Shown here in pieces: positions 13,806-53,206 of a DNA stretch of 64,000 bases. The translations under genes were made by a program, and so were the position numbers. The stretch comes from Anthoceros angustus. Its lineage: Eukaryota > Plantae > Anthocerotophyta. The DNA lies in the NCBI GenBank assembly GCA_010909165.1, contig MU008161.1:1984001-2048000 (forward strand). Direction: 5' to 3'. Below the pieces are notes generated by a model, which was not told the DNA's origin, made no database searches, and saw only the letters and a list, made by a program, of their open reading frames with translations. The stretch's first letter is position 1. Every line of letters begins with the position of its first letter.

Positions 13806-16800
13806 ATAATATTAATCCGTCACGTCATCAATCCGGTGTTTTAAATAAGCACCCGAAAGAGTGCCACATCATCCAACTAGAAAACCCCGTTGTGAACCGA
13901 GTCTTAAAACTTGCCATCATGAAACTTAAACCAATTTACGGAGGTTTTAGATGTTTGTAAAGATTGGGACATTTGCAATTTTGTAAAACACCCTCTCCCT
14001 AGTAGTAATTACTAGATTGTCTAAGTCGATTGAGTAATCTTGTGAGATGAGTGGAATCAGAATGCCGTGTTGCATGTGTCAAACAACGCAATAAACTTAT
14101 CCATGAAAATGATTGGCATACCTTATTGTGTTGCCCATCTTGATTGATGAATAAATATGTTCTGCTTTCTCTATGCCTTAGCACTTGAATGCCTAAACAA
14201 AATAAGAGTTCTCGACAGGATGTCATAGAGAAACTCTTTGCAAGCATTAATCTAGTATCTTCTCGGATAGCCTAGGAATTAGACATAAGACTTTATCATC
14301 GTAGACACCTAGCACTATAAAATGATTATTATATCATTTGATGTAAATGTTGCTATTTGAGTTTAACCTAGAAAAACCTAGGGACTTCAAGCTAATTTAA
14401 AATACCACTTCATGGCGCTTTGCTTGAGTCCATATAAGGACTTTAATAGTTTGCTGGCATTATACTTTTTTTATCTTTAACTTATATACCCTCGTGTATT
14501 TCCGTATAAATTGTGTGGTCGAGGTCACCATATACGAAAGCTATTTTAACATCTAATTGGATGAGCTCATAATCGTGATGAGAAGCCAAAGCTATGAGGA
14601 TCCTTAATGAGGTTATTTTTAGTACATGGCTAAGAGTCTCATCATAATCGAAACCATATTTTGTGAATAACCTTTAGGAATTAATCGACTTTATATCTTT
14701 GTATACCGTCATCCGCATTTAATTTAATTCGATGGTCCATTTAAAACCTACAAGTTTTACATTTTAGTGGTAAGGTGGTTAGTGTCCAAGTTTTGTTAGC
14801 TTTCAAGGAATCTAATTTTGACCTTATTGCTTTCTTCCAATTTTCTCTTCATGCACATGTGATGGCCTCTTGATACTTGTGCCAAAATATTCTTAGGGTC
14901 CCATTAGTAGGGGAATATCTATTAATTTTACTTGCGTTAGAATGTTGAAGAAGGAGGCTACATGGCAATCGGATCAAGACCAGAATTGGCTTGGCAAGAT
15001 CCGAGGATCACCGCTGAAGCCCATGTTACTCGTAACCCGATTTTGAGGCCCCATTTGTGCTACATACCGACTAAAGCAGTGCATAGGCACAATCTTATCA
15101 CAAGTCGATGCAGAAGGGACAGCGTGTTGTGGCATATGCCAAGATATCTAACAACAAGGTGAATTACTCCGTGATGAGGGTGAGTGCTTGAATTCAAGCA
15201 TGAGCATGCCTTCAAATGTCTCATGCCGATTGCGAGATTTCAAGTGCATCCACACTGCTCTCTCACCATTAGAGCCACGACTAGGCACTTCCCTCGCCGG
15301 TCCTATCAAACTCCAGTAACATCACTATTATCCTGTAAGGATTGCGACTGAGGGCATCTGCGTTGTGGTAGACCTTCCCTGCCCTGTGAATGATCTCCAT
15401 ATCATATTCAAACAACATGAGCGCCCACCTGGCCAACTTGCCACCAACTTCATGTTGCTCATGAGCCAATGAAGTGGTTGATGATCAGTTACCAACTGGA
15501 ATCTTCGACCAAACAAATACACTCGAGAGTGCAGCACTGCCCAAGAATGGTGAGTGGAAGGACAGAAGAATGTGTGGAGACTACCGACCACTGAACAAGG
15601 TTACACCAATGGAAAGGTATCTGATGCTAACGCCAGACGAGATCTTCGACGCGATTTGCAAGGCGAAGTATTTCACTACATTGGATTTCCGCTCGGGATT
15701 CAACCAGATTGTCATAGTAGAGCAGGATAAGTGCAAGTCGGCATTTTGGGGCAAGGATCAATTGTGAAAGTGAGAATCCATGCCCTTTGGTCTGAAGAAT
15801 GCTTCTATATATGTCTAGCGAGTTGTTGATCTGGAACTATGGGGACTGTCGTTTGTTCGATGCTACATTGATGACATCTTCGTCTTCAGTGAAACACTAG
15901 AGGACCACCTGGAGCATCTATAGACATAATATTAATCCGTCACGTCATCAATCCGGTGTTTTAAATAAGCACCCGAAAGAGTGCCACATCATCCAACTAG
16001 AAAACCCCGTTGTGAACCGAGTCTTAAAACTTGCCACATCAGCGAAACTTAAACCAATTTACAGCGGAGGTTTTTAGATGCTGTAAAGATTGGGACATTT
16101 GCAATTTTGTAAAACACCCCTCTCCCTAGTAGTAATTGCTGACGAGATTGTCTAAGTCAGGATTGAGTAATCTTGTGAGATGAGTGGAATCTGTAATGCC
16201 GTGTTGCATGTGTGCTGAAACAACGCAATAAACTTATCCATGAAAATGATTGGCATACCTTATTGTGTTGCCCATCTTCGATTGATGAATAAATATGTTC
16301 TGCTTTCTCTATGCCTTAGCACTTGAATGCCTAAACAAAATAAGAGTTCTCGACAGGATGTCATAGAGAAACTCTTTGCAAGCATTAATCTAGTATCTTC
16401 TCGGATAGCCTAGGAATTAGACATAAGACTTTATCATCGACGTAGACACCTAGCACTATAAAATGATTATTATATCATTTGATGTAAATGTTGCTATTTG
16501 AGTTTAACCTAGAAAAACCTAGGGACTTCAAGCTAATTTAAAATACCACTTCATGGCGCTTTGCTTGAGTCCATATAAGGACTTTAATAGTTTGCTGGCA
16601 TTATACTTTTTTTATCTTTAACTTATATACCCTCGTGTATTTCCGTATAAATTGTGTGGTCGAGGTCACCATATACGAAAGCTATTTTAACATCTAATTG
16701 GATGAGCTCATAATCGTGATGAGAAGCCAAAGCTATGAGGATCCTTAATGAGGTTATTTTTAGTACATGGCTAAGAGTCTCATCATAATCGAAACCATAT

Positions 16801-17100
16801 TTTTGTGAATAACCTTTAGGAATTAATCTGACTTTATATCTTTGTATACTGTCATCCGCATTTAATTTAATTCTGATGGTCCATTTAAAACCTACAAGTT
16901 TTCTGTTTAGTGGTAAGGTGGTTAGTGTCCAAGTTTTGTTAGCTTTCAAGGAATCTAATTTTGACCTTATTGCTTTCTTCCAATTTTCTCTTCATGCACA
17001 TGTGATGGCCTCTTGATACTTGGCAGGCCAAAATATTCTTAGGGTCCCGCCAGTTAGTAGGGGAATATCTATTAATTTTACTTGCGTTAGAATGTTGAAG
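12794..17100. repeat. Direct tandem duplication, two ~2.15 kb units (12794-14941, 14942-17091)
   Basis: ATGTTGAAG occurs at 12794, 14942 and 17092. The units are colinear and differ mostly by small indels. Confidence 0.95.
13820..14005. mobile_element. Probable CACTA-type terminal fragment (duplicate at ~15935-16135)
   Basis: Subterminal motifs TGCCACATCA and CCCCGTTGT, shared with 28830-29960. The fragment ends ...CTAGTAGT. Confidence 0.35.
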
Positions 17101-18925
17101 GCGCCTCCCCCTAATATCCGTGACATTGTCAGGTCAAGAAGTGTCCTCTTTGGTATTATCCAGATTAGGGTCTTGAGGTCCATCCATTTGTGCGATATTT
17201 TGTGGATGAGGTAAGTAATTAATATTTTCCAAATTCAGATGCCTACTTGTTGGAGCATCATATTGTGAGAGCGAGCTGCCCTAAATGGTCTTGTTGTTTA
17301 TAGTTATTTGCTGCTAGTCATTTTCTACACTCCTAATATACATGGCCAGGTATTTTGCAATAGCCACAGATCGGTTTGCATTAGGGGTTATAATTCCTCC
17401 TTCCTTTGCTGGGATATGATCCCCATCCACGATGGCTACCTCTGAAAGTGACCACGTCCAGATCCCCTACCTCGAGATCTGCCTCTGCCACTGAAGAAGG
17501 CGCTGGAGGATGCTTCTCCAGCATATGCGAAGACCTTTCATCTTGCCTCTTCAATAAGCATTGCACTAATTACTTTGTTAATTGTTAGGGGTTGTACTCC
17601 CGACAAACTTTGTACCACAGTGATCCAGGTTTCCGGGAGTGTTGATAAGAGGAATGCGGCTGTGAGATCCTCAGAGATATTCAAGCCCACATCTTGAAAT
17701 TTGATTGTCTAGCTGCGCAAGATCATTGCATGATGATCTACGGGGTCACCTTCGGCCATTCGAAGTCCGAAATAATTTTTTGTGGTATGGATTGTGTGCA
17801 TGATGTCAGTAGCTACGTAGACTTCATGCAGTTGCTTCCATACACCAGCTGCAGTTTCTGTGCCTTCTAGTTGCTGGAGGTTTCCCTGGCGTATGCTTTG
17901 CATAAGAACATTTCGGCCTCTTGGTTCTTTTCTTCCCATTCGTCTTTTTGAGCTTAAGTAGCATTTGGTGCAGATGGTTGGGGAATCGGGACGGTTGGAT
18001 TGCCCAAGCCGCCAACATAACCCCAAAGTTTCCTCTCCTTTAAGATGTTGGTTATCCGAAACTTGCACATAGGGAAGTTGTGTTGCTGCCCATTAAAACT
18101 CTCTTCTTTTGACAAGGATATATGTGAAGCTAACATGTTGGGTTTGCAAGGTAAAGATGGTATGTCTAATTGTGTCGTTGATTGCTAACTGCAGAATAAT
18201 CACTACTTTGTAGATTTTGTGTGATTGAGTGCTTTGCTCAAGAGTGGTGATTTTGTATAGTATGGAATCCTGAATTTCTTGAATTTCATCTGCAAGGATT
18301 GGGTGTGGGAAGTTTGGCTGTTTGGACAGAATGTTAAGGTGGGTGGCAATGCAATCTCTTACATGTGCTGGTGAGAGCTTTGACAAATCTATGTCGAACT
18401 GCATGGTAAACTGATGGATCATTGCGAGAGACCTGATATTGCGATTTGGATGTATGCGCAATCATTATAATCGGTTGAGTTGAATTCTCCTCGTAGGAGA
18501 ATGTTGATTTGTGAATGTTCTCCTAATGCAGAGTATATCCATAGATTTTCCTTTGCCTCTTTTAGATAGGTTTGCACTATGCACGTTCTGCGCTGTTCAA
18601 GATGCTGAGAAATTTGTATAGCACGTCTGCGCAAGCAGTGGCGCCTTTGATGGCCGGGCATGATGGAGGCTTATACGGGTCATGATTATACATGTAAGAT
18701 TGGTGAGCGAGAAGCCTACTCTGATACCATGTCATAATCAGGCAGTAAGATTCGATGTATTCAATTGAACTGTAAACGAGCGCACGAAGAGCGCTTTTCA
18801 GAGGGGCAAGGCCCAGAAACGTTATGTCTCTTTAAGGTTTAAGACGTAACCATTCGTATCATACTCGTATTGAGACGTGCCCTAAAAGGACATTATACTA
18901 CTTACTTTAGCAAAGAAAGGGTCTG
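16140..18925 (-). mobile_element. Ty1/copia LTR retrotransposon, internally deleted (gag joined to post-integrase linker and RT); RT part duplicated at ~14010-14941
   Basis: gag FNGQQHNFPMCKFRITNILKERKLWGYV, LLSTLPETW, and a CGYCKIPGH knuckle at ~17330-17360. RT KANKTWTL...RYKVRLIPKGYSQKYGFDYDET...QLDVKIAF. PBS present, and the 5' LTR begins at 18730. Confidence 0.88.
18718..18729 (-). promoter_or_regulatory. Primer-binding site complementary to tRNA-iMet (TGGTATCAGAGT)
   Basis: The plus strand reads actctgatacca, immediately followed by TGT (the LTR terminal CA on the minus strand). Confidence 0.85.
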
Positions 18926-19498
18926 TCATGCCGTGTGATACTAATCTCTGCACTTGGGTTTAGTGTTTGATTAGCATTAATTAATCTAATTACTTATCTT
19001 CAAGTAAGTAATTAGTGTTAATTAATCTAAAGTGCTTATGTTAATTAAGCGTTGATTAGTGTTAATTAATCTAATGTGCTTATGTTAATTAAGCATTGAT
19101 TAGTGTTAATTAAACATGGTTAGCAATAGCTAAGTGGATAAGCTCAAGTAATATGCTTTGGCATATTCCTTGCATATTATAGTGTATTCTTAGGATACAA
19201 TAGCTAAGTGGATAAGCTCAAGTAATATGCTTTGGCATATTCCTTGCATATTATAGTGTATTCTTAGGATATTTCGCATACCGATGCCAATAGGATATCT
19301 TAGGAATATGCCAGTGGTCTAGTATATAGACCCTTCCATTGAGGACAAGCTCAGATCATAGCTTGTCCTCTAGATATGCAATGCAAGGCGTTGTGAGGAG
19401 GCCAAAGCTATGACTGAGAGCGATGTGAGGAATTTGCGTGTTGTTCTCGTGGGAGAGTGTGTTTGTGCCACACGTGCGAGCTACTCCCTCCTGTTGTT
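18925..19498 (+). repeat. Left LTR-like direct repeat
   Basis: Colinear with 30732-31303 (gtgatactaatct...cacttgggtttagtgtttgattagc through gagctactccctcctgttgtt). Contains an internal ~72 bp tandem repeat. Confidence 0.85.
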
Positions 19499-19524: not shown

Positions 19525-20075
19525 AGATAGGCGATGCTAGGCGATGCCAGGCGATGCTAGCGTGCTAGGCGATGCCAGCGATGCCAGGCGATGCTAGATG
19601 CTAGGTGCTAGGTGCTAGGTGACGCTAGCGATGCCAGGCGATGCCAGGCGCTAGGCGATGCTAGGCGACGCTAGCAGGCGATTTGTGCAGGCCAAGGCCA
19701 AGAGGAGGAGGCAAGGCCAAGGAGGAGGAGGCAAGCCCAAGGCCAAGGAGAGGAGGCTGAAGAAGGCCAAGGAGACTCAAGTCCAAGGCCAAGGAGAGGA
19801 GGAGAAGAAGCCCAAGTCCAAGGCCAAGGAGAGGAAGAAGCCCAAGTCCAAGGCCAAGGAGAGGAGGCGAAGAAGCCCAAGTCCAAGGCCAAGGAGAGGA
19901 GGCGAAGAAGCCCAAGTCCAAGGCCAAGGAGAGGAGGCGAAGCCCAAGTCCAAGGCCAAGGAGAGGAGGCGAAGAAGCCCAAGTCCAAGGCCAAGGAGAG
20001 GAGGCAAGAAGTCCAAGGCCAAGGCCAAGGCCAAGGAGAGGAGGCAAGAAGAAGAAGCCTACCAAGGAGAGGAAT
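19525..20075. repeat. Short tandem arrays: ~10 bp GGCGATGCYA units, then ~40 bp CAAGGCCAAGGAGAGGAGG..GAAGAAGCCCAAGTC units
   Basis: Periodicity directly visible. These arrays produce the low-complexity shadow ORFs at 19658-20183. Confidence 0.95.
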
Positions 20076-20599: not shown

Positions 20600-22880
20600 T
20601 TTGAAGGATCCGTGGAGTGGCAACACACAAGACAAAGTGCTGGACAACTCGGTAGCGGCGAGGAGGACTTGTCTCTTGGAGTCGTCAAGATGGGAGGAGA
20701 CAAGGATCGAATGGAGTTGTTCACAGGACGAGCGGCACCTTGCCACGGAGGACTTCATCGAGAAATGCAGTGCGGTGTGTGCGGAGATGGAATTGAAGAC
20801 CGGATACACGAAGCGATACGGCTTCATCCAAATGCCAAGTACTTGGGGATGAAGCATTGGCGTGCTATCGCGAGCACAAAGGTTGTTGGCCTGGAGGAGG
20901 CAAGAAGCCCAAGCCCAAGGCCAAGGAGAGGAGGCGGTGCACCGTGGGCACGATCCCATCGAAGAGATGTTTGACATCTTCCGGAGTTTCGCAAGCACGG
21001 ATGAGAAGATCTCCGGTGACACACTTCAAGATGAAGTCGGCGAGATGGCTTATCAAGAATCGACCGGTTGATGTGACACCAAGATCATGAGTGACCGTGC
21101 TGCAGAGAATGCGGGCATTGCCATATACGCTGCGCATGAAGGTGCAACAAGCGGTGCACAGACGAAGGGCAACACTACACCCTCAAGGAAGTGTACGAGA
21201 TGGCTGATAGGGCCCGCCGACACTTTCTCTCGTCTTTGTTGCAAGTGATTACTCCGGCACAAGTAGGAGTGGTGGGCGACATGGCCAAGCGGAGGTCGAG
21301 TGGAGGAGCTCGGCGAGACAAGCCAGCCCACACCAAGTGGCGAGCCCTGCGTGAGGTGCCGAGGACGGACCATTCCCCTCATGAGTGCGAGCATGCATTC
21401 GGAGGAGTCAAGGGTGAGGAGCCATGCCCTAGGTGTGGAGGTACGGCACAATGAAGCGGCATGTTGGGAGAAGCATCCGAATTGCGGCCTACGGGTTATC
21501 GAGCGGCGGCCAATGCATCTGCGTCAACCTCATCCACAAAATCGGCGAAAGCAAGTGGAGGAGGCAAGCCCAAGGCCAAGTCCCGTGGACAAAAAGCGGG
21601 AAGCATCAAAGAAGGCGATGGGCGCTCGTGGCACGCCTTGCAAAGCTGGAAGTTGGTGCGGAAGGCGAAGATCAAGGAGAGCGGCGGTTCATCATCGAGG
21701 ACGAAGAAGATGAGCACAAGCTTGGATACATGGCGGCGTGACCGGATCCAAGGGCAAGGGAGGACTTGTCTCTTGGAGTCGCCAAGATGGGAGGAGACAA
21801 GGATCGAATGGAGTTGTTCACAGGACGAGCGGCACCTTGCCACCGGAGGACTTCATCGAGAAGTACGCGTGTGTGCGGAGATGGAATTGAAGACCGGATA
21901 CACGAAGCGATACGGCTTCATCCAAATGCCAAGTACTTGGGGATGAAGCATTGGCGTGCTATCGCGAGCACAAGGCGAGGCTGTTGAGCGACACTGGAGG
22001 ACCAGTGAGTAGCGCTCAAGCTGGAAGGAACCAGGCAGACGGAGTGGCACCGAGTGGGCACGATCCCATCAAGAGATGTTTGACATCTTCCGGAGTTTCG
22101 CAAGCACGGATGAGAAGATCTCCGATGACACACTTCAAGATGAAGTCAGAGACCGCAAAGATGGCTTATCAAGAATCGACCAGGTACGTGACACCAAGAT
22201 CATGAGTGACCGACGCAGAGAAGTACTTGCAGCATTGCCATATGCATGCGCATGAAGGTGCAACAAGCGGTGCACAGACGAAGGGCAACACTACACCCTC
22301 AAGGAAGTGTACGAGATGGTCGACAAGATAGGGCCCGCCGACACTTTCTCTCGTCTTTGTTGCAAGTGATTACTCCAAAGACAAGTAGGAGTGGTGGACG
22401 ACATGACCGACGCGGAGGTCGAGTGGAGGAGCTCGGCGAGACAAGCCAGCACACACCCCAAGTGACGAGCCCTGCGTGAGGTGCCGAGGACGGACCATTC
22501 CCCTCATGAGTGCGAGCATGCATTCGGAGGAGTCAAGGGTGAGGAGCCATGCCCTAGGTGTGGAGGTACGGCACAATGAAGCGGCATGTTGGGAGAAGCA
22601 TCCGAATTGCGGCCTACGGGTTATCGAGCAGCAACCCCGCCAATGCATCACGCCAACCTCATCCACAAAATCAAGAGCAAAGGCGCCGTGGAGGAGGCAC
22701 TGCAAGTCCCGTGGACAAAAGAAACGGGAAGCATCAAAGAAGACGATGGATGCTACGTGGCACGCCTTGCAAAGCTGGAGAAGTTGGTGCGGCGAAGATC
22801 AAGGAGAGCAGCTCATCATCGAGGACTAAGAAGATGAGCACAAGCTTGATACATGGCGACCGGATCCAAGGGCAGGGAAG
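20600..22880 (+). pseudogene. Gypsy gag with two CCHC zinc knuckles, present as two ~1.1 kb tandem copies (20662-21758, 21759-22878)
   Basis: CVRCxGTDHSPHEC (~21348) and CPRCGGTA(H)NEAAC (~21425) are recoverable across small indels and repeat at ~22470-22590. Confidence 0.75.
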
Positions 22881-22949
22881 AAACCTCCGCCTACGAGAGA
22901 AGATAGCTCGAGGAAGAAGAGGATGTCTTGACACCAGCGGAAGACACGG

Positions 22950-25117
22950 AAGGAAGCTTGGGATCCTCTTCCGAACCTATGCCAAGATGCCAAAGTCGTT
23001 TGAGCCATTGCCAGCAACAGCAACTGTGGGAGCAACATCAAAGTCAGTGGGCGATGTGGAGAAACCCATGCACGGACGGAGACGATGGCACAAAAGCTTG
23101 GAGATGCCATGTTTCACCTACAAGACATGGGGTTGAGCGTGAAGGAAGTCGGGGTTTGACTCGGCGGATGTTGACAACCCTTGAAGGCGAAGCAAGTGTC
23201 CAAGATTTGCCACAGGTGGCAATGATGTCATTGCGACCTCGAGCCAAGCATCTCGTGGAAGCGGAATCAGTGGGAGTGGCTTTGGTCAACAATCGGAGAG
23301 GCACATTGAAATCAATGGATTCGCACCAAGGAGGTGTTGATTGACACCGAGCACACCGGTGATCGTTGGAAGAAGAGTGAAGGAAGCGTTGGGTCTCCAC
23401 CAAGAAAGGTTGAAGGAAACCAAGTGGAAGATCCAGACCTGGGACCACGGAGCATGTGTTGGGGTGACAAGGTACAACTGAAGGTTTCATTCAAACCAAG
23501 AATCAGACTTCACCTTTGTCGAGGTACACCGCTTGGTCAGATCACGAGACATTTGATGTCTTCTTTGGGAGCGGACGCTTTGTACAAACACAGAGTCATG
23601 GTGGATTTGTGGGCGGAGGTCTACTATCGACCAGTGGAGAAGCTGGAGCAAAACCGATGAACGGATTGCCGCATCCCTCTGCGGCATGGCAAGGATCATG
23701 AGAACCTCATTGCCAGCGTCTACCCAGTGTTTGGCGCCGTAGTGAAGGACACGCCATACGTGCTTGAACCTCTTGGCGTGTGTCTAACAACGACCGATGG
23801 AGGATTTCGGAGGAGGAGGAAGACAAGCTAGGGTTGCAACCACCCTCGGAGGAGGTTCTTCAAGTCGGGAGCTGGTGATGCGGCAATGAGCCGTGCAAAA
23901 GGCTGTGGAGGATGGTGCAAGAGGACCCGGTGCCCTATGAGGAGAACTACGTAAGTTCTTGCCTAGGGTTGAGCCTGTTTGTGACCTAAACACCCGGTCA
24001 TCACATGGCGACCTCGGGAAGACGGAAGCTTCGGATCCTCTTCCGAACCTATGCCAAGATGCCAAAGTCGCTTGAGCCATTGCCAACAGGAGCAACTGGG
24101 AGCAACATCAAAGTCCAGAGAGTGGGCGATGTGGAGAAACCCATGCAGATTGCTGACGGAGACGATGGCACAAAAGCTTCTGGAGATGCCATGTTTCAGC
24201 CTACAAGACATGGGGTTGAGCGTGAAGGAAGTCAGGGGTTTGACTCGGCGGATGTTGACAACCCTTGAAGACGAAGCAAGTGTCCAAGATTTGCCACAAC
24301 AGTGCAATGATGTCATTGCGACCTCGAGCCAAGCATCTCGTGGAGAAGCGGAACGCAATGGTGGAGTGGCTTTGGTCAACAATCGGGAGAGGCACATTGA
24401 AATCAATGGATTCGCACCAAGGAGGGTGTTGATTGACACCGAGCAGCCCGGTGATCGTTGGAAGAAGAGTGAAGGAAGCGTTGGGTCTCCACCAAGAAAG
24501 GTTGAAGGAAACCAAGTGGAAGATCCATCAGCTGGGACCACGGAGCATGTGTTGGGGTGACAAGGTACAAGTCAAGGTTTCATTCAAACCAAGAACAGCA
24601 GACTTCACCTTTGTCGAGGTACACCGCTTGGTGATGCATACATTTGATGTCTTGCTGGAGCGGACGCTTTGTACAAACCGAGTCATGGTGGATTTGTGGA
24701 CGGAGATGCCTACTATCGACCAGCCGGAGAAGCTGGAGCAAAACCGATGAACGGATTGCCCGCATCCCTCTGCATGGCAAGGATCATGAGAACCTCATTG
24801 CCTACACCCAAAGGTTTGGCGCCAGAGTGAAGGACACGCCATACGTGCTTGAACCTCTGGCGTGTGTCTAACAACCGCAATCGACCGATGGAGGATTTCG
24901 ACGAGGAGGAGGAAGACAAGCTAGGGTTGCAACCACCCTGAGGAGGTTCTTCAAGTCACCGGACGGAGCTGGATCGCAGAATGAGCCGTGCAAAAGGCTG
25001 TGGAGGATGGTGCAAGAGGACCAAGGTCCTATGAGCCGAGAACTAAGTTCTTGCCTAGGGTTGAGCCTGTTTGTGACCTAAACACCTGTGTCATCACATG
25101 GCGACCTCGGGAAGACG
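22950..25117 (+). pseudogene. Gypsy aspartic protease region, two ~1.08 kb tandem copies
   Basis: VLIDT(G)AQPVIVGRRVKEALGL at 23334 and ~24426, followed by DFTFVEV..FDVLL. Duplication junction at ggaagacgg (~24018/25109). Confidence 0.75.
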
Positions 25118-25119
25118 GC

Positions 25120-25545
25120 ATAGTGCTCGTGGAACTCTTTGGAGGCATTGACGCTTGAAGCATAAAGTGTGGCATCAGTGCTAAGATACGCATTGTGACC
25201 CGGATCCAAAAGCAAGGATCGTGTGTGCCAAGAGACTTGATGGGGAGTACCCCAACCTCCGACGGGAGTCGAAGGGTTACCGTAGGCGCCGATGGATGTT
25301 CGCATGATAGGGTTGTCCCATTTGAGTTGTCTTGGCAACCGTGGACCTTGTCATCGCAGTTGGGAGGCCAAGGACTATCCTCGCAGTAAAGGGTCAAGGT
25401 CTCAAGGATCCAAACAAGATTGTTCTATGACTCGATGAGGATCTTGCGCTTGATCCGTAAAGGGCAAGAAAGGCCTTGCGATACATGTTGGAGAATGTGC
25501 CAAGATGAGCGTGAAGAAGCAAGTCTGTGAGGATTTCTGCATGAT
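25120..25545 (+). pseudogene. Cytosine-5 DNA methyltransferase (DNMT) catalytic domain, motifs I-VI, within gypsy pol; 3' truncated and indel-damaged
   Basis: IVLVELFGGI (25120-25149, motif I), CDPDPKAR (II), PMDVRMI (III), VDLVIA(G)WE(C)QGLS (25341-25380, IV), GQGLKDP..RLFYD (V), RYMLENVP (ENV at 25491-25499, VI). Order and spacing are correct. Confidence 0.85.
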
Positions 25546-25549
25546 CCGA

Positions 25550-26470
25550 GGACTGAGAATTTAGGGACCAGGGACCCTGACCTGGGACCAGACACACGTC
25601 TGGAAGGAGACCAAGAAACGGAGCCTCCCGCACAACGCGGCAGTGGCCGAGGACTAGGCGCGAGGCCATAATCGCGGAGGACATGGGAGGTCCTCCATTG
25701 CGCGCTTAGCTTCCACAATTTCTCCCACGCGTGCCCCTCGCCCTGCTGCGCAAGGGGAGCTCGGGGCCTCTGACCACGTGGGCTGAGGCTATGTCTGACG
25801 GAGGGAGGTGAGGCCCTCACGGCCTCGGAATTTCCCTCGAGGTAACCACGATAAGGATGTGAAGATTGTGAGCCTAGGCAGCGTACCGGCTCGGGCTCTC
25901 TGATGTCGATGCAAGCATCTTGAGTGCGGTCATGAAGCGGATCGAGTGCGTGATTCTGACCTGTTCCACAGTCATGTTATGGCCGCTCTGATGGTGACAC
26001 GGGTTTTGCTTCATCTCTGCTCCTACTCCCACTCGCTCTAAAGCTATCTAATTGCTTTGTGTCTTGGCAGGATCATCTTGAGGATTGAGGAGGATCTTGT
26101 TCCTCCCGAAGATTACATGTGCTGAGGACTCCGATGCTCGAAGGCCTCCAGTCCCTCCGACTCGGAGAATCCAAAGGAAGAGTCCTCCGAGGGAGCGGAC
26201 TGGGATTAGGTAGCAGGGCATGTAGGCTAGTTGGGGTTAGATAGGAAAGTTCCGGACTCTCCTAACCCCGGACCTCGAACATGCTCGTGCGGCTCTTTTG
26301 AAAGAGCTTTTAATATATCTGCGGGGTTTTCTTGTGTAGGCACATACTCCAGTTGCTTGACTAACCTTGCTTGCGTTTGGGATCTTTGTGTTTGAGCTCG
26401 AAGTGAGATCAAGATTACGGAAGTGAGATGAGGAGTCAAAGTGTGAGCTCCTCTTCACTCAAGGTCACCG
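25550..26470 (-). mobile_element. Ty1/copia remnant interrupting the gypsy element
   Basis: RNase H tail QLEYVPTQENPADIL(T)KALSKEPHEH at ~26250-26360. The rest is degenerate. Confidence 0.6.
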
Positions 26471-27149
26471 GAGGATCCTTCAACCTTAGCTAAGGATCTA
26501 AATACTCCTATGTGTTTTCGTGGAATCACCTCAATCGCCATTACACTAATGACATTTCGTCACGCATGGTCCTTCAACCTCTTCCGGATCTGCATTTCAA
26601 CATTTCAACATGCCTCTACATTTCGGATGTTACGACTAACCATGCTTCGTGAAATCCCTCGTAGATTGGTTTTCAGCACTGCATACTATGTAGATTATCG
26701 CCGTGAAGTGGCCTATCGAAACTCTATACCTATTGTCTATTAGAAATTAGCTCGTGAGGCGCCTTCTTGGCGCTGGATTGGCCATTTCATTAGGCGACTT
26801 TGTCTTGCTAATATGCAAGAACTGCATATCATTGTATTACAAATCTTTATATGTAGCACCTTGATCGAGGTTGTCCTAGTGTATCTCCATTGGAATTGCG
26901 GTGCAATCCAAAAGGAAGTACACTAGGATTCCTACCTAGATTCGCAGTTGCTATAAAATTTTCAATATACTCCACGGCCTAGGTTGAACTCACTACTCCG
27001 GCCATGGAGTAGCGAGATTGTATACATGTCGACCAGGCCCTTGATGAGTCGGCCAATTTTACCCCTGCATCTACCTAACATGCATATATAGCCCTACATG
27101 CAATATCTAAACGAATTCCCATGGTTCAAGGAAGTTGCCTTCCTCGGCC

Positions 27150-27430
27150 CTCGAAATAGGTTTCTATCTACATACTATTTTCCCAAGGACCAAGGAACAT
27201 CCTTCCGAAACCGCGAAGACCAAGGACTCGAAATAGGTTTCTATCTACATACCATTTTCCCAAGGACCAAGGAACATCCTTCCGAACCCCGAAGACCAAG
27301 GACTCGAAATAGGCTTCTATCTACTTGCTACTTTCCCAAGGACCAAGGAACATCATTCCGAAACCCTGAAGACCAAGGACTTGAGTCTGTTCCTTCCGAA
27401 ACCCCAAAGACCAAGGACTTGAGTCCTACC
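27150..27430. repeat. ~75 bp tandem repeat (3 units plus partials)
   Basis: ctcgaaatagg recurs at ~27151, 27227 and 27302, with ccaaggac subrepeats. Confidence 0.9.
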
Positions 27431-28269
27431 TATTTGAATAGATAGGACTACGGACTCGTGTAGCGGACTTGAGCGGCCACCGCTGTGACCACACCAAGTG
27501 GCGTCCTCCCATCACCACTTCCTAGGACTCCCTCTTGTGCGTGGGAAACTAGGCGAGGTAAGAGGAGCTCTGCTCACGACATTGATTGGTGAGTCCGGTG
27601 AGGTCCTCGGGTTAAACAACATGTTCAAGCCACTTGTTGGATGAGAAGCTTGTTTCTTTGAATATGCGTGGGTCATTGTGCTTCTCCTTCCAAGTCGAGC
27701 TCTCGAAGCAGCTGAGCACAGGAGGTGTCTTGGATTGGATATGGGAGTCGTGACACCGTAACCATCGGCGTTATGTGAGTAGGGAAAGCTTCGAGGCCGT
27801 TGGAGCTCTCGTAAAATCTAGCGTAGATAGACTATTCTATTCCTCATCCATCTTATATGTCGGCTAAAACTTTGTGCGAGATAAGAAGGACATGGTTGTG
27901 GGATGACGCGTTCATGATCTCACATCAAACTTGAGTGCAGTCAATCACATACTTGGGGAACCATATCTTGCGGATGTATGTATCGGAGGTAGGCTACAGG
28001 AGGGTGGGCAAACCAAATCCCTTCATGTGGTTTTCAATAATCTCCGCATGCTACACATGGGGAGCCTAATGAGGCGATACAACTTTACTATGTATGTGCT
28101 CGGTGTGATGCCCACATCTTGTAGCAGCCCTTCAAGCTTGTGCATTTCTTTGTGGACACGGAATCTAGCGAGAAAAGTGCGGCATATATGTTGCAGTGAC
28201 ATTCCACCGAACTTGTTATTGCCAATGGTGGACATGTCATAGCGTGGCTGGAAGACAAACACGGTTTTC

Positions 28270-28815
28270 GATAGGTTAGGCGAGAAAGGATGTCGTGACA
28301 TGGGCCACGATAGTTGGGTATGCAAATCATGGGCTTGGCCAAGAGGCGCTTGTTGGACAAATGGAGAAGGAGGGCACGATTGTGGGCAACCATGTTACCT
28401 TTGCTTGCCTTCCGAGGCTGTGCAACGCAAGTGCCTTAAGGCGGGGCAGCACTCCGCATTGTGGAGAGAGACTAGATAACACACTTGTGGGCACTTGCGG
28501 TGGACATGTAGGCAAAGTGTGGCGAGTAGAAGATGCGCATCAAGTTTTTCAATGCTTGAGCCCAAAGGATGTGGTGACTTGGAATGCCACGATTCTTTGG
28601 GTATGGACGAGAAGGGCTTGGTCAAGAGGCGCTATTTTTGTATGGACGAATGCAGGAGGCTGCTTGTGGCGATGAGGTTACTTTTGCTTGCCTTTTGAAG
28701 GCATGTGCAAGCATTGGTGCCTTCTGAAGGCGGTAGGCACTCACGCTTGTGCAAAGAGGACATTTGGATAACGACTTGTGGGCTTCGGTGGACTGTATGC
28801 CAAGATGCATGCCTC
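28270..28815 (+). pseudogene. PLS-class PPR (organellar RNA-editing factor-like) gene fragment
   Basis: KDVVTWATIVGYANHGLGQEAL, VTFACL, VEDAHQVFQCLSPKDVVTWNA and VTFACLLKACASIG across frameshifts. Confidence 0.8.
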
Positions 28816-28829
28816 GTTTTTGACAGCTA

Positions 28830-29960
28830 GAAAATTCTTACACCGACATTTTACAATGGCTGGCACTATTTATAAATCGATAAATTTGTATAACATTTTA
28901 CAATGTATTTGCAATGAACATGCACATCGGCAATTTCACTAATATATAGCCTCATAAATGACATAAATCGGAAAAGGTCTCTTCCACATATTTACAACGG
29001 CATTTCGACAAGCATGCCACATCAACAATCTTACTAATATATAACCTCATAAATTACATAAATAAGGAAAAGGCATGCCACATGCAATCTTACTAATATA
29101 TAACCTCATAAATTACATAAATAAGGAAAAGGGCCACATCCTCTTACTAATATATAACCTCATAAATTACATAAATAAGGAAAAGGTCTCTTCCAAAATT
29201 TTACAACATTTTACAACATGCCACATCAGCAAATAATATATTTATTCATGGATATTGGCTGGCTTGTGCATTTTACAACCATAGTTCTGACGCATGTGCC
29301 ACGTCGGTAAATATACAATAAAATGAATAATCCAATAATATAACATAAATTGGAGAAACCATTTTACAATGATATTTGCAATGAGCTTGCCATGTCAGCA
29401 AATAATAAATTTATTTATAGATATTTATATAAAATGGTTTTCATGCGTTTTACAACCATAGCTACAATGCATGTGACACGTCAGAAATACAAAAAAAAAG
29501 ATAATCCCATAACTAACATAAATCCAGAGAAACATATTTACAACATCATTTGCAACGAACTTGCCACATCAGCAAATAATAAATCTATTCATAGATATTC
29601 CAATAAATGGTATTATTCCAAAAATCAAGTCTTGCACAATTTACAACCACATCTACAACAAACATGGTTTACAACGTCTTTTACAAGTACCGTTTTACAA
29701 CATCCTTTATGCCACGTCATTATAAATTCAACAAAATGTAGTTTTATTAACAAATAACCCCCATAGTTTTCTAAATCAAAAGAGTTTATGCACAATTAAC
29801 AACGTCATGTACAACGAGCAAGCCATGTCAACAAACCCCGTTGTAAAATTTGTGTCAACATGCCATGTCAACAAATCCCGTTGTAAAATTGTCAACATGC
29901 CATGTCAACAAACCCAAAAATCCATGCCACATCATATTAGTTAGGAACCCTTGTTGTAAA
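28830..29960. mobile_element. AT-rich array of subterminal-type repeats, probable DNA transposon (CACTA-like) end region
   Basis: Many direct and inverted ACATTTTACAA / TTGTAAAA, TGCCACATCAGCAAAT and TGCCATGTCAACAAA motifs, plus ~47 bp tandem units at ~29030-29190. Confidence 0.5.
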
Positions 29961-30119
29961 TGTTCAAAAACTTACAAGGCTTTGAGTCAGTAAGAGTGTT
30001 GTAGTTTCCTCTAACTAAACTTAGACCCATTTGTAAAGGTAGCCCCTCCTTGTAGTGGAAGGAACTGTCGATTGCTTGGGCAAGCATTTGACATGAACAT
30101 GATGACCGTTGTTTAGCGC

Positions 30120-30599: not shown

Positions 30600-31400
30600 T
30601 GTGTAGTCTACTAATGATAATGTTTTGACTTAGAGTCTCACATTATCGGGGATTGGTTGCACCTATATATCTAGATGCGACATTAGATTTGTTTGCTTGG
30701 TTGTTGATCGAGGAAGTTACAAGTTTACCTGCTATCATGCCGGTGATACTAATCTCTTGCTTATATGAATTCAAGTGCTTACCTGCATGTATGTGTGATA
30801 CTAATCTGCACTTGGGTTTAGTGTTTGATTAGCATTAATTAATCTAATTACTTATCTTTAAGTAAGTAATTAATGTTAATTAATCTAATGTGCTTATGTT
30901 AATTAAGCATTGATTAGTGTTAATTAAACATGGTTAGCAATAGCTAAGTGGATAAGCTCAAGTAATATGTTTTGGCATATTCCTTGCATATTATAGTGTA
31001 TTCTTAGGATACATAGCTAAGTGGATAAGCTCAAGTAATATGCTTTGGCATATTCAGCACATATTATAGTGTATTCTTAGGATATTTACGGCATATGCTG
31101 ATGCCAATAGATATCTTAGGAATATGGATGCTGTGTGGTCTAGTATAGACCCTTGGTGAATGATCGGATGTGACATAGCTCTGTCTCATGCAAGGGTGTT
31201 GTGAGGAGGCCAGCTGACTCAGAGAGCGTGTGAGGAATTTCGCGTTGTTCTCGTGGGGAGAGTGTGTTTGTGCCACGATGTGCGAGCTACTCCCTCCTGT
31301 TGTTTATTGGTTGCACCTATATATCTAGATGCGCATTAGATTTGTTTGCTTGGTTGTTGATCGAGGAAGTGCTTATATGAATTCAAGTGCTTACCTCGTG
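30600..31400 (+). repeat. Right LTR-like repeat with partial internal duplication
   Basis: 30732-31303 matches the left repeat. 30652-30790 recurs at ~31306-31395. Confidence 0.8.
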
Positions 31401-31720
31401 CGACAGGTCGGAGGCTCATCCAACCCTCCCACACAAAGCATGAGCATTCCTTCCAGCAACCACATCCTTCTCTAACATGCAGCTCTTGAGCATCCAATAC
31501 AACCTCGCCATTGCAGCCCATCGCAAAAGCTTGCTCGCAAGAGCCAGCACCCCTAGACCCAATACTAACCCTCGGTCCTTGAGGAGTTACACAGGAGGGA
31601 GAATCTGGAATAGGTAGGTCTGAGTTATTCCCAAGGACCTGGAGGATGGGCTCTATGAACAATTTCAATTATCGAAGTCAAAACTCATTGTCGAAACCAA
31701 CACTCCCCATGTGCCTATTG

Positions 31721-31797: not shown

Positions 31798-33266
31798 ATT
31801 GGGACTTGTAGGAGGCAACAGAGCAACCATTATAGACGCTAGGGGGGCTACTTTGCATAATGGTATGATCAAAACACTAGCATTGAACAATGTAAACATA
31901 TGCTCAACATCACTAAGTACTCACTTACTTCATCTGACATGAACCAAAAATTAAAAAGGGACAATTAGAAGCAAACTAGTGAACAGGAAAGGAGAAATGA
32001 GAAGGATAAATGAGAAGATCCTATTAAAACTTTTAGTTTGTTGCAAGAGCAGTGTCTTGCTAGAAAGATACACTTGGTTGAAAGCATTACAGGTTGGTTA
32101 CTTTTGATGGGCCCTTGGGTTTCGAAATTTGAGAGTGAATGTTTCTCATTAAGCTCTACGTGCCTATATGTCTACATAGGTATCCAAGATTATTTTTTTC
32201 TTTTTCTAATGAATGTAATCTTGCACAAAAGAGCTATTCGAGGGAGTTCAAAGCATCATATTTACGGTATTTTGAATTAATTCATGAAGAACTATTAGAG
32301 GGAGTTCAACGCATCATAGTAACGAAGATTCGGTATTTTGAATTAATTCATATATATTTTATGATACAAAGAATATTTTTAAGTTTTTTATGCGTGCATT
32401 CTTGTGCCATAATTAGCAAATCAGGAACTCCCATCTCGCTCATCATTCCTATTTAAAATTGGATTTCCAGGCTCTTCTTATAGCACCAAGGGCATCACTC
32501 CCTCTAGGCACCCCATCTAAATACGGATCGAAGCACAAGATGCTTAACAACCACATTGTTATAAATGCGTAGATGTACACATATGTACTTGTTTCCCACG
32601 GTCGCCATGTGTTGCTTGTCCCGCTTTGCCTTGATTGCACCCTGAGGGGTATAGGAGGCTCTTTCCCACACTTGCATTATTGGTACTCTATTGGCATTGC
32701 TGGCTCTGCATAGGGTGCTGGAAGCTCTTTCCCACACTTGCATTATTGGTGTTCTGTTAGCATTGCTGTAAATGCAGCCCGGGTTTCCCTTTTTTCTGAA
32801 TTCAATATAATGCAACTCGCCTTGCACTTCACACAATGGCTCATCGAGCAAAATTGCCCAAGATATTGTGCTTGCTGCCTACTGTATGCATCAGAACGAA
32901 TACTGGAAACGGTAATATGTTGTCATTATGTAGTCATTGTGCTGAATGTAAGAAAACACAAAACATAGGTACATATGTGTTAAAATGTAGATACATATTT
33001 GTTGATATGGGAAACGAGTTGAAGCGAAAAGGTACAATGAGAGTCATAATGGGCCGCGAGTTACGGAACGGGGCACGGCTGTGAGCTGGTGGAGGCAGTC
33101 CGTTGGAGGCAACGGCAATGGACGGGTTTGAAACGGGAGAGGGAGACGGTGCGAGGGTGACAGAACCCTCTCCCCGCCAAAGGTGCGTCTTGAAGTGGGC
33201 AGCTGTGGCCATGGCGCCTGGCGTGAGGCAGCGAGCGTGATCGACGCCAGCATCGCGCCCGAGAGG

Positions 33267-36200
33267 ATGTCGACCATGGTCGGAGTGCGAGGGGCGCCCG
33301 CCATGGCGCCGGAGCCGGAGGCCAGGACCGGGGCCGTGTCGGGAATGCACGATGGCATCATTCAGACCCCCAGCGCCTTCTACGCCGGCGGCAGCAGCAA
33401 CCCTTCTTCCCGCATCTGGGGCGCCTCTCCCCCGCCGGCCTTCTTCCGGGTCGGCGATCCCGCCGGCCCCTTCGCGGCGCCCGCAGAATCGTCGGATTCC
33501 TCCTACGCCACAGCTCCCGTCTCCTTCGCCTCGGGCTGGAGCGGGGCCAGAAGCCACAGGAAGAGTGCAGTGTCTGCAGTGCCTCCAGGTCCTGCTGTCC
33601 CTGCGGTTCCTGCGGTGCCGGCGGTTCCCGCTTCTGCATCCTCCGCGGGCGCCTCTTCTACATTTGTGTCAGCTTCTTCTTCATCCTCGTTCCAGTCCTT
33701 CTCCTCGCCAACCTCTGCATTTTCCTCACCTGCAGCCGTCTCGTCCTCTGCTCCCGCAGTGGGATCTGGATCCAGCGGATCTGAGGCGGCCATGGCCAAG
33801 GGCGCCAGGAGGCAGGCGGGATGGCGGGATTCGGGGCCTTCCGCCCGCGCGCCGGCTGGATTCCGCGCCGGCCAGGAGCAGGAAGGTGCGTCTGGTGAGG
33901 AAGCTGCGTCCGGGAGGCACAAGGCTGTGTTGCAGAATTCCGGCAAGGCGAGTTTCAAAAATTCTATGAAGGGGGAGTCCTGGAATTCCTCGGATTTGCG
34001 CACGGCAGAGGCCGGGTTCAGGTTCCAGTCCGGGAGCATGAAGGGGTCCGGGGAATCCTCGGCGAGTTCTGGCGACGCCGGGTTTAGGTTTGGTGCGGAT
34101 AACGCTGCTGCCTCTGCTGGAAGTGGGGGTGGGTTTAGGTTTGGAGCGAGAGTTGCTGCGGATGAGTTTCGGGCCTCGGGTACCGCTCCCATGGCATTTT
34201 CTTCCCAATCGGAATCATCGGTTTTGAGTGGTTTGAGTCGGTTGGATTTGAATTCGGAGACCGCTGCTTCTGGAGTGAAAGCAGGAGCAGGTCGGGAAAG
34301 TGTCTTCTCCCGTGATGTGTTTGGCAGGGGGAAAGTGGAGCACGGGGTGGGATCTGTGAGACAGAATGCTGATGTCGGTACATTGCCACGGGCTGACTCT
34401 CAGTCACCTGGGTTGAAGTATGGTGTCGAGCCACTTACGGAGAGTAACAGAGTGAGCTCCAAGTTTAATCGGGGGACCCCGTTGCCAGGTGATACTGCTG
34501 CAGATGATGCAATGGAAAGTTCCAGTAGCAATGCTTCGAAGTTTGGGCAACAAGGGTTTTCGAAGGAGGAGGTCAGCAGCGGGCAGTCTAGGTTCCAGGT
34601 TGAGAATGCTGGACAATCCCCGGATGCGCCTCATGCTGACATTTCTGGTAGAAGTAATGGTAGGTTCAAGCTGGGCAGTGGTGCAGCAGCTATTACTCAT
34701 AAGCAATCTGCACCGGATTACGTTTCACCAAATGCCAAGTTTGCTGAATTCACGGGTGAGACATTGCGGGGGGTAGGAGACCAAGAGAATTTTAGACCCA
34801 GGGGTAATGGGAGGACTCTTGATCGAGAGCCCTTATTTTCTTTTGAGGGGAGGTCTTTTCCTGCTGCCTTTCTGAAGACTGGCAATGCCAGTGCCGGGCT
34901 CGCATCTCCAGCTTCTTCGAATGAGGGGTCGTCTCCTGTTTTTGTTTTTGGAGCTACTCCAGGAGGACGTGCAGGAACCTCACAGGTTGAGGAGACAGAT
35001 GCTTCAAGGTTGCCTCGAGGACTCTTGAAACAGAGGAGGAGATCCTTTTCAACGAAGGCGAAAGGCTCGGCTTCGTCGGGTCATACCTCTGTTCCTTTTG
35101 GAGATGTTACTTCTCCAGCAACATCCAGTGTGGCGCAAGGGGAGGCTTCCTTGGCTGGTGCAGCGTTTGATTTCCAGCAAGCTGCAGACATTTTTTTCAG
35201 GGCAGGGCCTGTTCAGGGCTCTGGTGAAATTCCCAGCGGTGTGGAGCCTGCACATGGAGCCAGCCCTCCCAAAAGTCCCACTGGAGAGCCTCAGTCTGCT
35301 GATGTCCCAAGTCCTACTGTTGGAGGGGCGGATGGGTTATCACCTCCGCAGCAGGTTGGTACAACAAACTGGAATGCAGTTTTTGCAGGCGTGTGCAATC
35401 TGTTCAAACAATCGTTCTCACTCCATGATAATGCTGAACAGGGAGGCTTCAGTGGCGCAACATCTCCACCTCTGCCTCCAATGGAGCCTTTACTTTTCAG
35501 CTTTCAATCATTGGGTTTGTCAGGTCCAGTGTCTGAAGGGAATGCTGGTGCCAACTCTTGCCCTTTCGTTTTCGGTGCCACCAAAGCTGTGCCTGTGGAA
35601 AGTCAGCAACAAGCGAGTGCTGTGAAAAGGAAGAAAGGAAAACTGCATCAGTCCTCCAGCCGAAAGTCTGGAAAGTCTCCTTCTTTGAATGCCAAGCAAG
35701 GCTCCACAACCAGTTCTGATGACCGATCTCCCTCACCCATGGATTTCTCACCGCGAAATGAAGAGGACATGGAACAACAAGATGGATTAGGGGCTCTTCT
35801 CTCAGCTGCGGCTAACCTTAGCATTGGTAAAGATAGCAGTCCAGAGAATGCCAGTGCAGAACAGGAACCCGCTGAGGGGAAGGGTGGAATAGAGAATGAT
35901 GGCTCGACTGTTGCTGGTAAAAGTGGAAAGTCAAAAAGGTCCTCTTCGGATAGCAGCTCTTTGTCAGAAGATGGTGAGGGAAGTGCTAATTCACCTGAGA
36001 GTGATGGAGGAAGCTCTAACTGGTCTGGCTTTGTTTTTTCTGCCAGCCCTTTGCATCCAGCTTCGGGTGTGCAAAGGCGGATTGTTCGTAAGTCATATCG
36101 TGAAAAAGGCCCTGAGATGAGGAGATTTGTGAGTGTCAAAGGGCATAGAGAGTTATCTTCTGGCACGGGTACCTCATTGTCAGCAGGTCAAGCAATTGCT

Positions 36201-53060: not shown

Positions 53061-53206
53061 CAGTAGCAACAGCACCGAGCAGGCAGCAGCTCAATCACCG
53101 TCTTAAGCATGGAAGCCTTGAGAAGGAAGAGAACTAGGAGCACTCGCTCGCTGGCACTTGGCCTGATTCTCTGCAGAAACGCTAGGCCAGTGTGCAATAC
53201 ACGTTT

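What the first reader, a model, noticed from the sequence alone, without database searches (positions are those of the whole stretch)
25120..25545. Ty3/gypsy LTR retrotransposon carrying its own cytosine-5 DNA methyltransferase in a land plant
Seen: in one orientation, between two ~570 bp direct repeats, lie gag with two CCHC knuckles, an aspartic protease (DT[G]A), and then, directly after the protease linker, a C5-MTase. The MTase shows motif I VELFGGI, II CDPDPKAR, III PMDV, IV VDLVIA(G)WE(C)QGLS, V GL.D..RLF and VI ENV. A pre-RT segment (FHIDLIKDEQVFRRRH) follows at 30.4 kb. The ORF track misses this domain because of indels. Known: retrotransposon-borne DNMTs have been reported in Symbiodinium dinoflagellates and the charophyte Klebsormidium; I do not recall a description from an embryophyte (needs a literature check). 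Inference: a gag-PR-DNMT-RT family survived into a seedless land plant and may methylate its own cDNA, either for self-protection or to manipulate host silencing. The W-E-C variant replaces the usual P-C. The catalytic Cys codon is reconstructed (TGG GAG GC CAA, one base missing), and motifs VIII-X are cut off by a copia remnant at ~25550.
Basis: partly seen in the sequence, partly recalled or inferred. Interest (0 to 1): 0.92.

Follow-up and report, generated by a model that had tools for sequence, protein, structure and literature searches.

The report
Plant retrotransposon relic carrying DNMT3 methyltransferase
This is a broken, partly deleted copy of an abundant plant jumping gene that carries a DNMT3-type DNA-methylase domain right after its protease, a design described before in one alga, and in intact relatives the enzyme would likely methylate the element's own new DNA copies, which is untested.

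Summary
The domain is real. A frameshift-tolerant profile built from natural relatives scores 25093-25502 at 58 bits (next best in the window 26; shuffle maximum 20). Gag, protease, methylase and pre-RT pieces are collinear with a polyprotein of the liverwort Calypogeia. That relative's domain folds like DNMT3A/B (Z 28.5). Short-read contigs of three organisms cover the domain; other copies read the catalytic W-E-C.

Corrections: this copy has lost motif VIII to IX by an internal deletion, and all of RT, RNase H and integrase. Motif X survives at 30058-30113, beyond a 4.5-kb insert that ends in a CACTA terminus; I found no copia match there. The end repeats are split (A-coding-B-A-B), as in KnitGypsy-Dnmt3 of Klebsormidium. 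W-E-C is shared by moss, liverwort and metagenome relatives. The domain sits before RT in land-plant relatives but after RNase H in unnamed metagenome elements.

Verdict: a dead, non-autonomous member of the Gypsy-DNMT3 kind. Nine paper searches found no land-plant description. This scan noted the family before on other DNA (62 notes, at least 4 genomes, this one included). Enzyme activity is untested.

The parts
18920..18923 (+). left target-site duplication (GGTC; possibly 5 bp with a homopolymer error on the right)
18924..19498 (+). terminal repeat A, 5' copy; begins TG
   Evidence: 3.0% substitutions against the 3' copy, many small gaps
19689..20075 (+). 35-bp tandem repeat in the 5' leader; the unit recurs at 20894-20936
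20662..21762 (+). gag, first tandem copy, with two zinc knuckles (frameshifted)
   Evidence: 21109-21595 aligns to P0066 aa 207-383, score 42 against shuffle maximum 26
21759..22880 (+). gag, second tandem copy (likely an assembly duplication)
   Evidence: (score 56 against 28.5)
22949..24025 (+). protease and linker, first tandem copy; stops just before the methylase
   Evidence: score 47 against 21.5
24021..25092 (+). protease (24366-24770) and protease-methylase linker, second copy
   Evidence: score 63.5 against 17.5
25093..25502 (+). DNMT3-like C5 methyltransferase domain, motifs I-VI, 9 frameshifts
25503..25556 (+). start of the motif VII region, then the internal deletion joint (motif VIII, target-recognition region and motif IX missing)
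   Evidence: sequence read against the relatives' alignment; contig joint 25556 to 30058
25560..30057 (.). nested 4.5-kb insert: CACTA terminus at the right end only, GAA on both sides, AT-rich repeats, PPR fragment near 27600-28850
30058..30113 (+). methyltransferase motif X (CRLLGQAFDMN)
   Evidence: 17.4 bits alone, within the chance range; its identity rests on position and the contig joint
30338..30431 (+). pre-RT segment; the element breaks off after it, with no RT, RNase H or integrase
   Evidence: score 27 against 16.5
30652..30790 (+). terminal repeat B, inner copy
30793..31304 (+). terminal repeat A, 3' copy
31306..31405 (+). terminal repeat B, outer copy; ends CA
31406..31409 (+). 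right target-site duplication (GGTC)

Best explanation
The stretch is a relic DNMT3-type cytosine methyltransferase domain inside a dead, internally deleted copy of a multi-copy plant Gypsy retrotransposon, and in intact family members the domain is likely made as part of the Gag-Pol polyprotein, packaged in the particle, and would methylate the element's own new DNA before or as it inserts. Shown here: the domain, its place between protease and RT, its DNMT3 fold in a liverwort relative, the split end repeats with TG..CA ends and a short target duplication, and the loss of half of the domain and of RT, RNase H and integrase in this copy. Inferred: this copy was moved by enzymes of an intact partner or lost its genes after insertion; the insert arrived after the deletion. 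Inferred and untested: catalytic activity, the substrate, and the benefit, most likely that new copies arrive already marked like old silenced DNA.
For: Profile score 58.2 bits against a shuffle maximum of 19.7; collinearity with P0066. A profile of 24 relatives ranks DNMT3A first among solved structures (E 1.7e-18), DRM at 1e-10 and M.HhaI at 1e-4, with G-W-E-C aligned to G-S-P-C. The model of the Calypogeia domain has pLDDT 92.6 and matches DNMT3A/B at Z 28.5, rmsd 2.5-2.7 over 270-271 residues; the best bacterial enzymes score 24.3 (Foldseek agrees). Catalytic positions C104, E146-N147, R186 and R188 are invariant in a 24-row alignment. The domain shares one reading frame with RT and RNase H in P0010, and with gag, protease and RT in P0066. 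Ka/Ks of the domain in 8 pairs of metagenome relatives is 0.04, 0.07 and 0.32, and synonymous sites are saturated in the other 5. In PMC5890265, two SymbioDIRS-Dnmt3 domains methylated CG in yeast, and the authors propose cDNA methylation.
Against: No activity was measured. The only tested plant-lineage member, KnitGypsy-Dnmt3, gave no methylation in yeast (called inconclusive in PMC5890265). Glu replaces the usual Pro before the catalytic Cys. The element shows no CG loss (CpG observed/expected 0.69-0.88 against 0.51-0.62 in host genes and 0.60-0.68 in neighbouring LTR elements); its CHG loss (0.49-0.70) is matched by the unrelated insert (0.53), so host enzymes or read errors can explain it. 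I did not see motif VIII-IX in this organism's own copies: contig depth only shows that most copies leave the window's sequence near 25520-25550. The Ka/Ks pairs are not from this family. No host DNMT3 gene was in my tree.
Confidence: 0.55

Rival explanations
1. The domain is kept as a DNA- or chromatin-binding module with weak or no catalysis, for example to hold the cDNA in the integration complex or to help choose a target.
For: Pro-to-Glu change next to the catalytic Cys; KnitGypsy-Dnmt3 inactive in yeast (PMC5890265); no CG depletion in this element; the domain works from two different places in the polyprotein.
Against: Motif I glycines, the Cys, the ENV Glu and both motif VIII arginines are invariant across distant relatives, which is hard to explain without catalysis. 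Caveat: the loci were picked by a motif IV pattern, so the Cys is invariant by construction; the Glu and Arg residues are not. Human DNMT3B also failed in the same yeast test.
Confidence: 0.2
2. The enzyme is active but acts mainly on host DNA, at the insertion site or in trans, changing silencing around new copies or of competing elements.
For: Relatives end their integrase with a PHD finger (11 of 17 ORFs scanned; Sphagnum P0021), which recalls the ADD/PHD reader of animal DNMT3 (own knowledge).
Against: A polyprotein domain is confined to the particle and the integration complex, where the nearest DNA is the cDNA (inference). K. nitens has an ordinary plant-like methylome (PMC5890265).
Confidence: 0.17
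3. The stretch is a host DNMT3 gene fragment captured once by this copy.
For: The domain is most like DNMT3 among solved structures, and non-flowering plants have host DNMT3 genes (PMC6453930).
Against: It lies at the same place after the protease linker in Sphagnum and Calypogeia proteins; contigs of four runs from three organisms cover it at the depth of the rest of the element; no intron was needed in the alignment; no DUF3444, which host plant DNMT3s carry (PMC6453930), was reported in any relative scanned.
Confidence: 0.03
4. The motifs are chance matches stitched together across frames.
For: Pfam, the word-index protein search and the full phmmer search all returned nothing for the raw frames; nine frameshifts are needed.
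Against: 58.2 bits against a shuffle maximum of 19.7; several frameshifts fall where short-read contigs differ from the window by an indel; all flanking domains are collinear with an intact relative.
Confidence: 0.01

Closest known systems
KnitGypsy-Dnmt3 of Klebsormidium nitens (de Mendoza et al. 2018, PMC5890265; read: main text parts 1-4 of 7 with legends, passages, and word searches in 3 supplement files; figures not seen). Called 'streptophytes (Gypsy-DNMT3)' in bioRxiv 10.64898/2026.05.21.726589 (passages read).
   Same: Intronless, unrearranged DNMT3-like domain in a Gypsy polyprotein; DIRS-like repeat layout A-coding-B-A-B.
   Different: Host is likely a land plant; this copy is deleted and non-autonomous. 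I could not see the domain's position in the K. nitens polyprotein or its motif IV (figures and Supplementary Fig. 13 not held as text), and had no K. nitens sequence to compare.
Unannotated Gag-protease-DNMT-RT proteins of Calypogeia fissa (CAM6101866.1, CAM6082409.1) and Sphagnum (P0016, P0021), and metagenome proteins like them
   Same: Same domain order and W-E-C; best pairwise match to the window's fragment (57 of 138 identical with P0066).
   Different: Only about 40% identical in the domain; the sources name them 'unnamed' or 'hypothetical' proteins.
RT-RNase H-DNMT-integrase-PHD elements on unnamed metagenome contigs (L001, L010, L012, L022, L059 and others; presumably algae, not tested)
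   Same: Same DNMT clade to the exclusion of phage enzymes, W-E-C, and a related integrase-PHD end.
   Different: The methylase lies after RNase H: in 22 of 28 long ORFs the RT motif was found and lay before W-E-C; in the other 6 it was not found. In 3 of 3 land-plant-type proteins the methylase lies before RT.
SymbioDIRS-Dnmt3 of Symbiodinium (PMC5890265)
   Same: DNMT3 domain within Pol; split repeats; the only such enzymes shown to methylate CG.
   Different: DIRS class with a tyrosine recombinase; an independent capture according to the paper.
Host plant DNMT3 (PpDNMT3a/b; Yaari et al. 2019, PMC6453930, passages read) and animal DNMT3A/B
   Same: Catalytic fold and motif order.
   Different: Host plant DNMT3 carries DUF3444; animal DNMT3A reads S-P-C where this family reads W-E-C; neither lies in a polyprotein.

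Membership tests
Gypsy-DNMT3 (KnitGypsy-Dnmt3 kind) | DNMT3-related domain with unrearranged motif order | tested here: met
   Motifs I-VI then X in order; relatives rank DNMT3A above DRM and bacterial enzymes by sequence and fold.
Gypsy-DNMT3 (KnitGypsy-Dnmt3 kind) | Domain lacks introns | tested here: met
   The frameshift alignment over 25093-25502 needs no long insertion.
Gypsy-DNMT3 (KnitGypsy-Dnmt3 kind) | Domain in the same reading frame as a Gypsy RT and RNase H | tested here: inconclusive
   This copy has lost RT and is frameshifted; its pre-RT piece follows the domain. Met in relatives P0010 and P0066.
Gypsy-DNMT3 (KnitGypsy-Dnmt3 kind) | DIRS-like repeat layout A-coding-B-A-B | tested here: met
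Gypsy-DNMT3 (KnitGypsy-Dnmt3 kind) | Key catalytic residues conserved | tested here: inconclusive
   Motif I and ENV are in the window; Cys is seen in other copies' contigs; motif VIII arginines are deleted in this copy and present in relatives.
Gypsy-DNMT3 (KnitGypsy-Dnmt3 kind) | Purifying selection on the domain across copies | tested here: inconclusive
   Seen in 8 pairs of metagenome relatives; no intact copies of this organism's family were on hand.
Gypsy-DNMT3 (KnitGypsy-Dnmt3 kind) | Groups with the K. nitens sequences in a tree | not testable with these tools
   No K. nitens sequence was returned; tree holds none.
Ty3/Gypsy LTR retrotransposon | Order gag, protease, RT, RNase H, integrase; TG..CA ends with a short target duplication | tested here: inconclusive
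   Gag-protease-pre-RT order, TG..CA ends and a 4-bp duplication are met; RT, RNase H and integrase are absent from this copy.
DRM methyltransferase | Circularly permuted motifs (VI-X before I-V) | tested here: not met
   Order I-VI then X.
Host plant DNMT3 gene | C-terminal DUF3444, stand-alone gene | tested here: not met
   The domain lies between protease and pre-RT segments inside terminal repeats; Pfam reported no DUF3444 in 13 related proteins.
Active C5 cytosine methyltransferase | SAM-dependent 5mC formation | not testable with these tools
   Needs an assay.

The most novel reading that the evidence does not exclude
An old green-lineage Gypsy clade with split end repeats carries an active DNMT3 with a W-E-C catalytic loop, has moved that domain within its polyprotein (after RNase H in one branch, before RT in land plants), and is still abundant in mosses, liverworts and hornworts, where it pre-methylates its own cDNA and inserts by cutting a junction inside its repeats. 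That would make bryophytes the first genetically tractable hosts for testing how a transposon uses its own DNA methylase.
Probability: 0.35. Interest if true: 0.8.

Novelty: new member of a known kind. Interest (0 to 1): 0.52.

Why it matters
Why a retrotransposon keeps the enzyme class that hosts use to silence it has been open since 2018, and the known hosts (Symbiodinium, Klebsormidium) are hard to work with. A family spread through bryophytes, some of which have genetic tools (own knowledge), makes the question testable. It also warns that DNMT3 counts in bryophyte genomes can include transposon copies. This copy itself is dead; its value is as a marker of the family and of a non-autonomous deletion form.

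Tried and rejected
No whole genome is held, so no genome-wide copy census. Raw frames gave no hit in Pfam, solved structures (two chance hits), the word-index protein search or the full phmmer search. No RNA holder was listed; this says nothing about expression. Viral contigs held no relative; prokaryote genomes gave 1 relative among 33 pattern matches, a retrotransposon contig in a metagenome bin, likely a contaminant. Phage methylases are distant (24-28% identity in the 15 rows shown). Copia origin of the insert: no support, though a few residues near 25700 on the minus strand loosely recall an integrase core. Reading 25505-25556 as motif IX was my first idea; I dropped it because it fits the start of motif VII in the relatives' alignment better. 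A conserved stop after the methylase, proposed in earlier notes: not general, since P0007, P0010, P0025 and P0066 run on without one; the window is too error-rich to tell. Split repeats were not recovered in the metagenome loci of 7 kb or more, which are mostly too short to hold both ends. CpG depletion as a footprint of self-methylation: not seen. The tree puts the window with the land-plant type, but on a long branch with 38% of columns filled; 18 near-duplicate or partial rows were left out and it has no host DNMT3. A look-up of earlier notes by this sequence found nothing. The atlas gave no reading for the window's own domain; for the Calypogeia domain its best cluster was a mostly streptophyte DNA_methylase cluster.

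Full report
Observation. Standard searches miss them: Pfam 0 of 3 frames, two word-index searches and a full phmmer search were blank. I therefore looked for natural relatives. A short motif IV pattern found 54 metagenome loci; 30 of them gave a domain of 200 residues or more with motif I upstream. One locus, L007, resembled the window most and led to 18 proteins among 1060 candidates, with named ones from Calypogeia fissa, Sphagnum balticum and S. magellanicum. A profile of 46 such domains, run with frameshifts scored as X over both strands of the window, has one clear peak: 25093-25502, 58.2 bits, 9 frameshifts; the next peak is 25.8 bits and 200 shuffles reach at most 19.7.

Anatomy. Against the Calypogeia polyprotein P0066 (CAM6101866.1) the window aligns in order through gag with two zinc knuckles, protease, linker, methylase motifs I-VI, motif X and the pre-RT segment; all pieces but the short motif X beat all 30 shuffles. 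After ENV the window reads about 15 more codons that fit the start of motif VII, then jumps to the residues just before motif X. Motif VIII, the target-recognition region and motif IX are gone. A 4.5-kb insert (25560-30057) splits this joint. It ends in a CACTA terminus, has GAA on both sides, holds a weak PPR match and gave no copia match. Beyond the pre-RT segment there is no RT, RNase H or integrase. The ends are TG at 18924 and CA at 31405 with GGTC on both sides, and the repeats are split: A, coding region, B, A, B. The two A copies differ by 3.0% substitutions, an upper bound given read errors. Gag and protease each occur twice in tandem, and other elements of the window show 2.1-kb tandem copies with the same many small gaps, so these are likely assembly artefacts (inference).

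Other copies. Four public DNA runs from three coded organisms hold part of the stretch. Their contigs cover the methylase at depths like the rest of the element; summed contig depth is no copy number, but hundreds of contigs per run point to a multi-copy family. In run X1 most depth differs from the window by an indel at 25366 (553 of 804), and a loose end there translates to W-E-C; indels at 25478 and 25504 recur in all four runs. One X1 contig joins 25556 to 30058 at depth 35, so the deleted form exists without the insert and is a minority beside a family depth of several hundred. Depth in X1 falls from 872 to 248 to 40 across 25494-25574, which suggests that most copies go on into sequence this copy lacks; I did not see that sequence. 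X1 may be the sample behind the window and is not independent support.

What kind of enzyme. A profile of 24 relatives ranks DNMT3A first among solved structures (E 1.7e-18), then DNMT3C and 3B, DRM (1e-10 to 3e-7) and M.HhaI (1e-4); G-W-E-C aligns with G-S-P-C. The predicted structure of the Calypogeia domain (pLDDT 92.6) matches DNMT3A/B best (Foldseek E 7e-18; Z 28.5, rmsd 2.5-2.7). The Cys, the ENV Glu and both motif VIII arginines are invariant in 24 rows. W-E-C is not peculiar to the window: 10 of the 11 proteins printed cover motif IV and all read it. The loci were chosen by that motif and the proteins by a query that holds it, so I cannot exclude relatives with P-C. In a tree of 33 rows the transposon domains stand apart from four phage enzymes, and the window falls on the land-plant side of a well-supported split, on a long branch; host DNMT3 was not available.

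Two layouts. In land-plant-type proteins the methylase precedes RT (3 of 3); in long ORFs of unnamed metagenome contigs it follows RT and RNase H and precedes an integrase with a PHD finger (22 of 28 with the RT motif found, 6 not found). The Sphagnum model P0021 ends in a related integrase-PHD region. Either the domain moved within one clade or it was captured twice; I could not decide. P0010 carries methylase, RT and RNase H in one frame, so a stop after the methylase is not general. Ka/Ks in metagenome pairs is low or synonymous sites are saturated.

Mechanism. The best-supported reading is a polyprotein domain that travels in the particle and methylates the new cDNA, so that fresh copies arrive marked. 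The position and the conserved catalytic residues are shown; activity, substrate and benefit are inferred. Against it: the K. nitens domain was inactive in yeast (inconclusive, PMC5890265), Glu replaces Pro at the catalytic loop, and the element shows no CG loss. Its CHG loss is shared with the unrelated insert and fits host CHG methylation, which is reported on transposons of the hornwort A. agrestis (PMC10952607, discussion read), or read errors at methylated sites. The split repeats equal a two-LTR circle opened inside one repeat (inference; also raised by earlier notes), and a contig of run X2 joins the end of B to the start of A, but I did not test the insertion route.

Host. Flanking genes are a PPR gene and CCDC47, the latter nearest to streptophyte clusters, with short introns. 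A seed-free land plant is likely; 'hornwort' is taken from an earlier unchecked note.

What is known. De Mendoza et al. 2018 (PMC5890265) describe KnitGypsy-Dnmt3 with the same repeat layout and call it an acquisition in the K. nitens lineage. A 2025 paper (PMC12344493, passages) and a 2026 preprint (10.64898/2026.05.21.726589, passages) cite it as streptophyte without naming land plants in the passages I saw. Nine searches on the methylase and one on split repeats (listing only) showed no land-plant description; passages of PMC6453930, PMC9516144 and PMC9033089 had none either. The library lacks most subscription papers, among them Iyer et al. 2011, which the 2018 paper cites for a DNMT linked to RT; figures, Supplementary Fig. 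13 and the preprint's supplements were not visible and may bear on this. The scan itself has 62 notes with these words in at least 4 genomes, at least 3 on this family in this genome.

Verdict. A real, dead, internally deleted member of the Gypsy-DNMT3 kind in a likely seed-free land plant. The kind is known; its spread through bryophytes and its two domain orders appear undescribed in the papers I could search.

Noticed in passing
window 12470-17100: A second, rearranged Gypsy remnant whose RT is 44-53% identical to the RT of the land-plant methylase-bearing relative P0010, with an RNase H piece on the opposite strand; no methylase peak near it. It may belong to the same clade.
   Followed up: partly
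window 17100-18923: A copia element on the minus strand (gag, PF14223 E 1.5e-18); the methylase-bearing element appears to have inserted into its 5' repeat.
   Followed up: partly
window 25560-30057: Insert with one CACTA end, 3-bp duplication, AT-rich repeats and a PPR gene fragment; covered by contigs in organism A but largely not in B or C; 25584-26007 has no cover in any run. Looks like a gene-fragment-carrying CACTA derivative.
   Followed up: partly
window 12794-17100, 20662-25118, 46779-53068: Tandem duplications of about 1.1 and 2.1 kb with many 1-5 bp gaps in three different elements, while nearby host genes have clean frames; likely an unpolished long-read assembly artefact.
   Followed up: partly
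window 30715-30790: The inner B repeat holds a 41-bp extra piece resembling a second B-A junction, and its junction with A differs from the outer ends.
   Followed up: no
window 33132-36542: A 1136-codon open frame without a Pfam match, low in complexity; its end recalls the first exon of a TPR-DnaJ gene (recalled, not tested).
   Followed up: no
L059:3061-9519: A near-complete RT-RNase H-DNMT-integrase-PHD retrotransposon on a contig filed in a bacterial metagenome bin, likely eukaryotic contamination.
   Followed up: partly
L012:6072-11789, L038:1110-7208: Extra domains in single relatives: a G-patch in L012 and a weak Tudor-like match after the PHD finger in L038.
   Followed up: no
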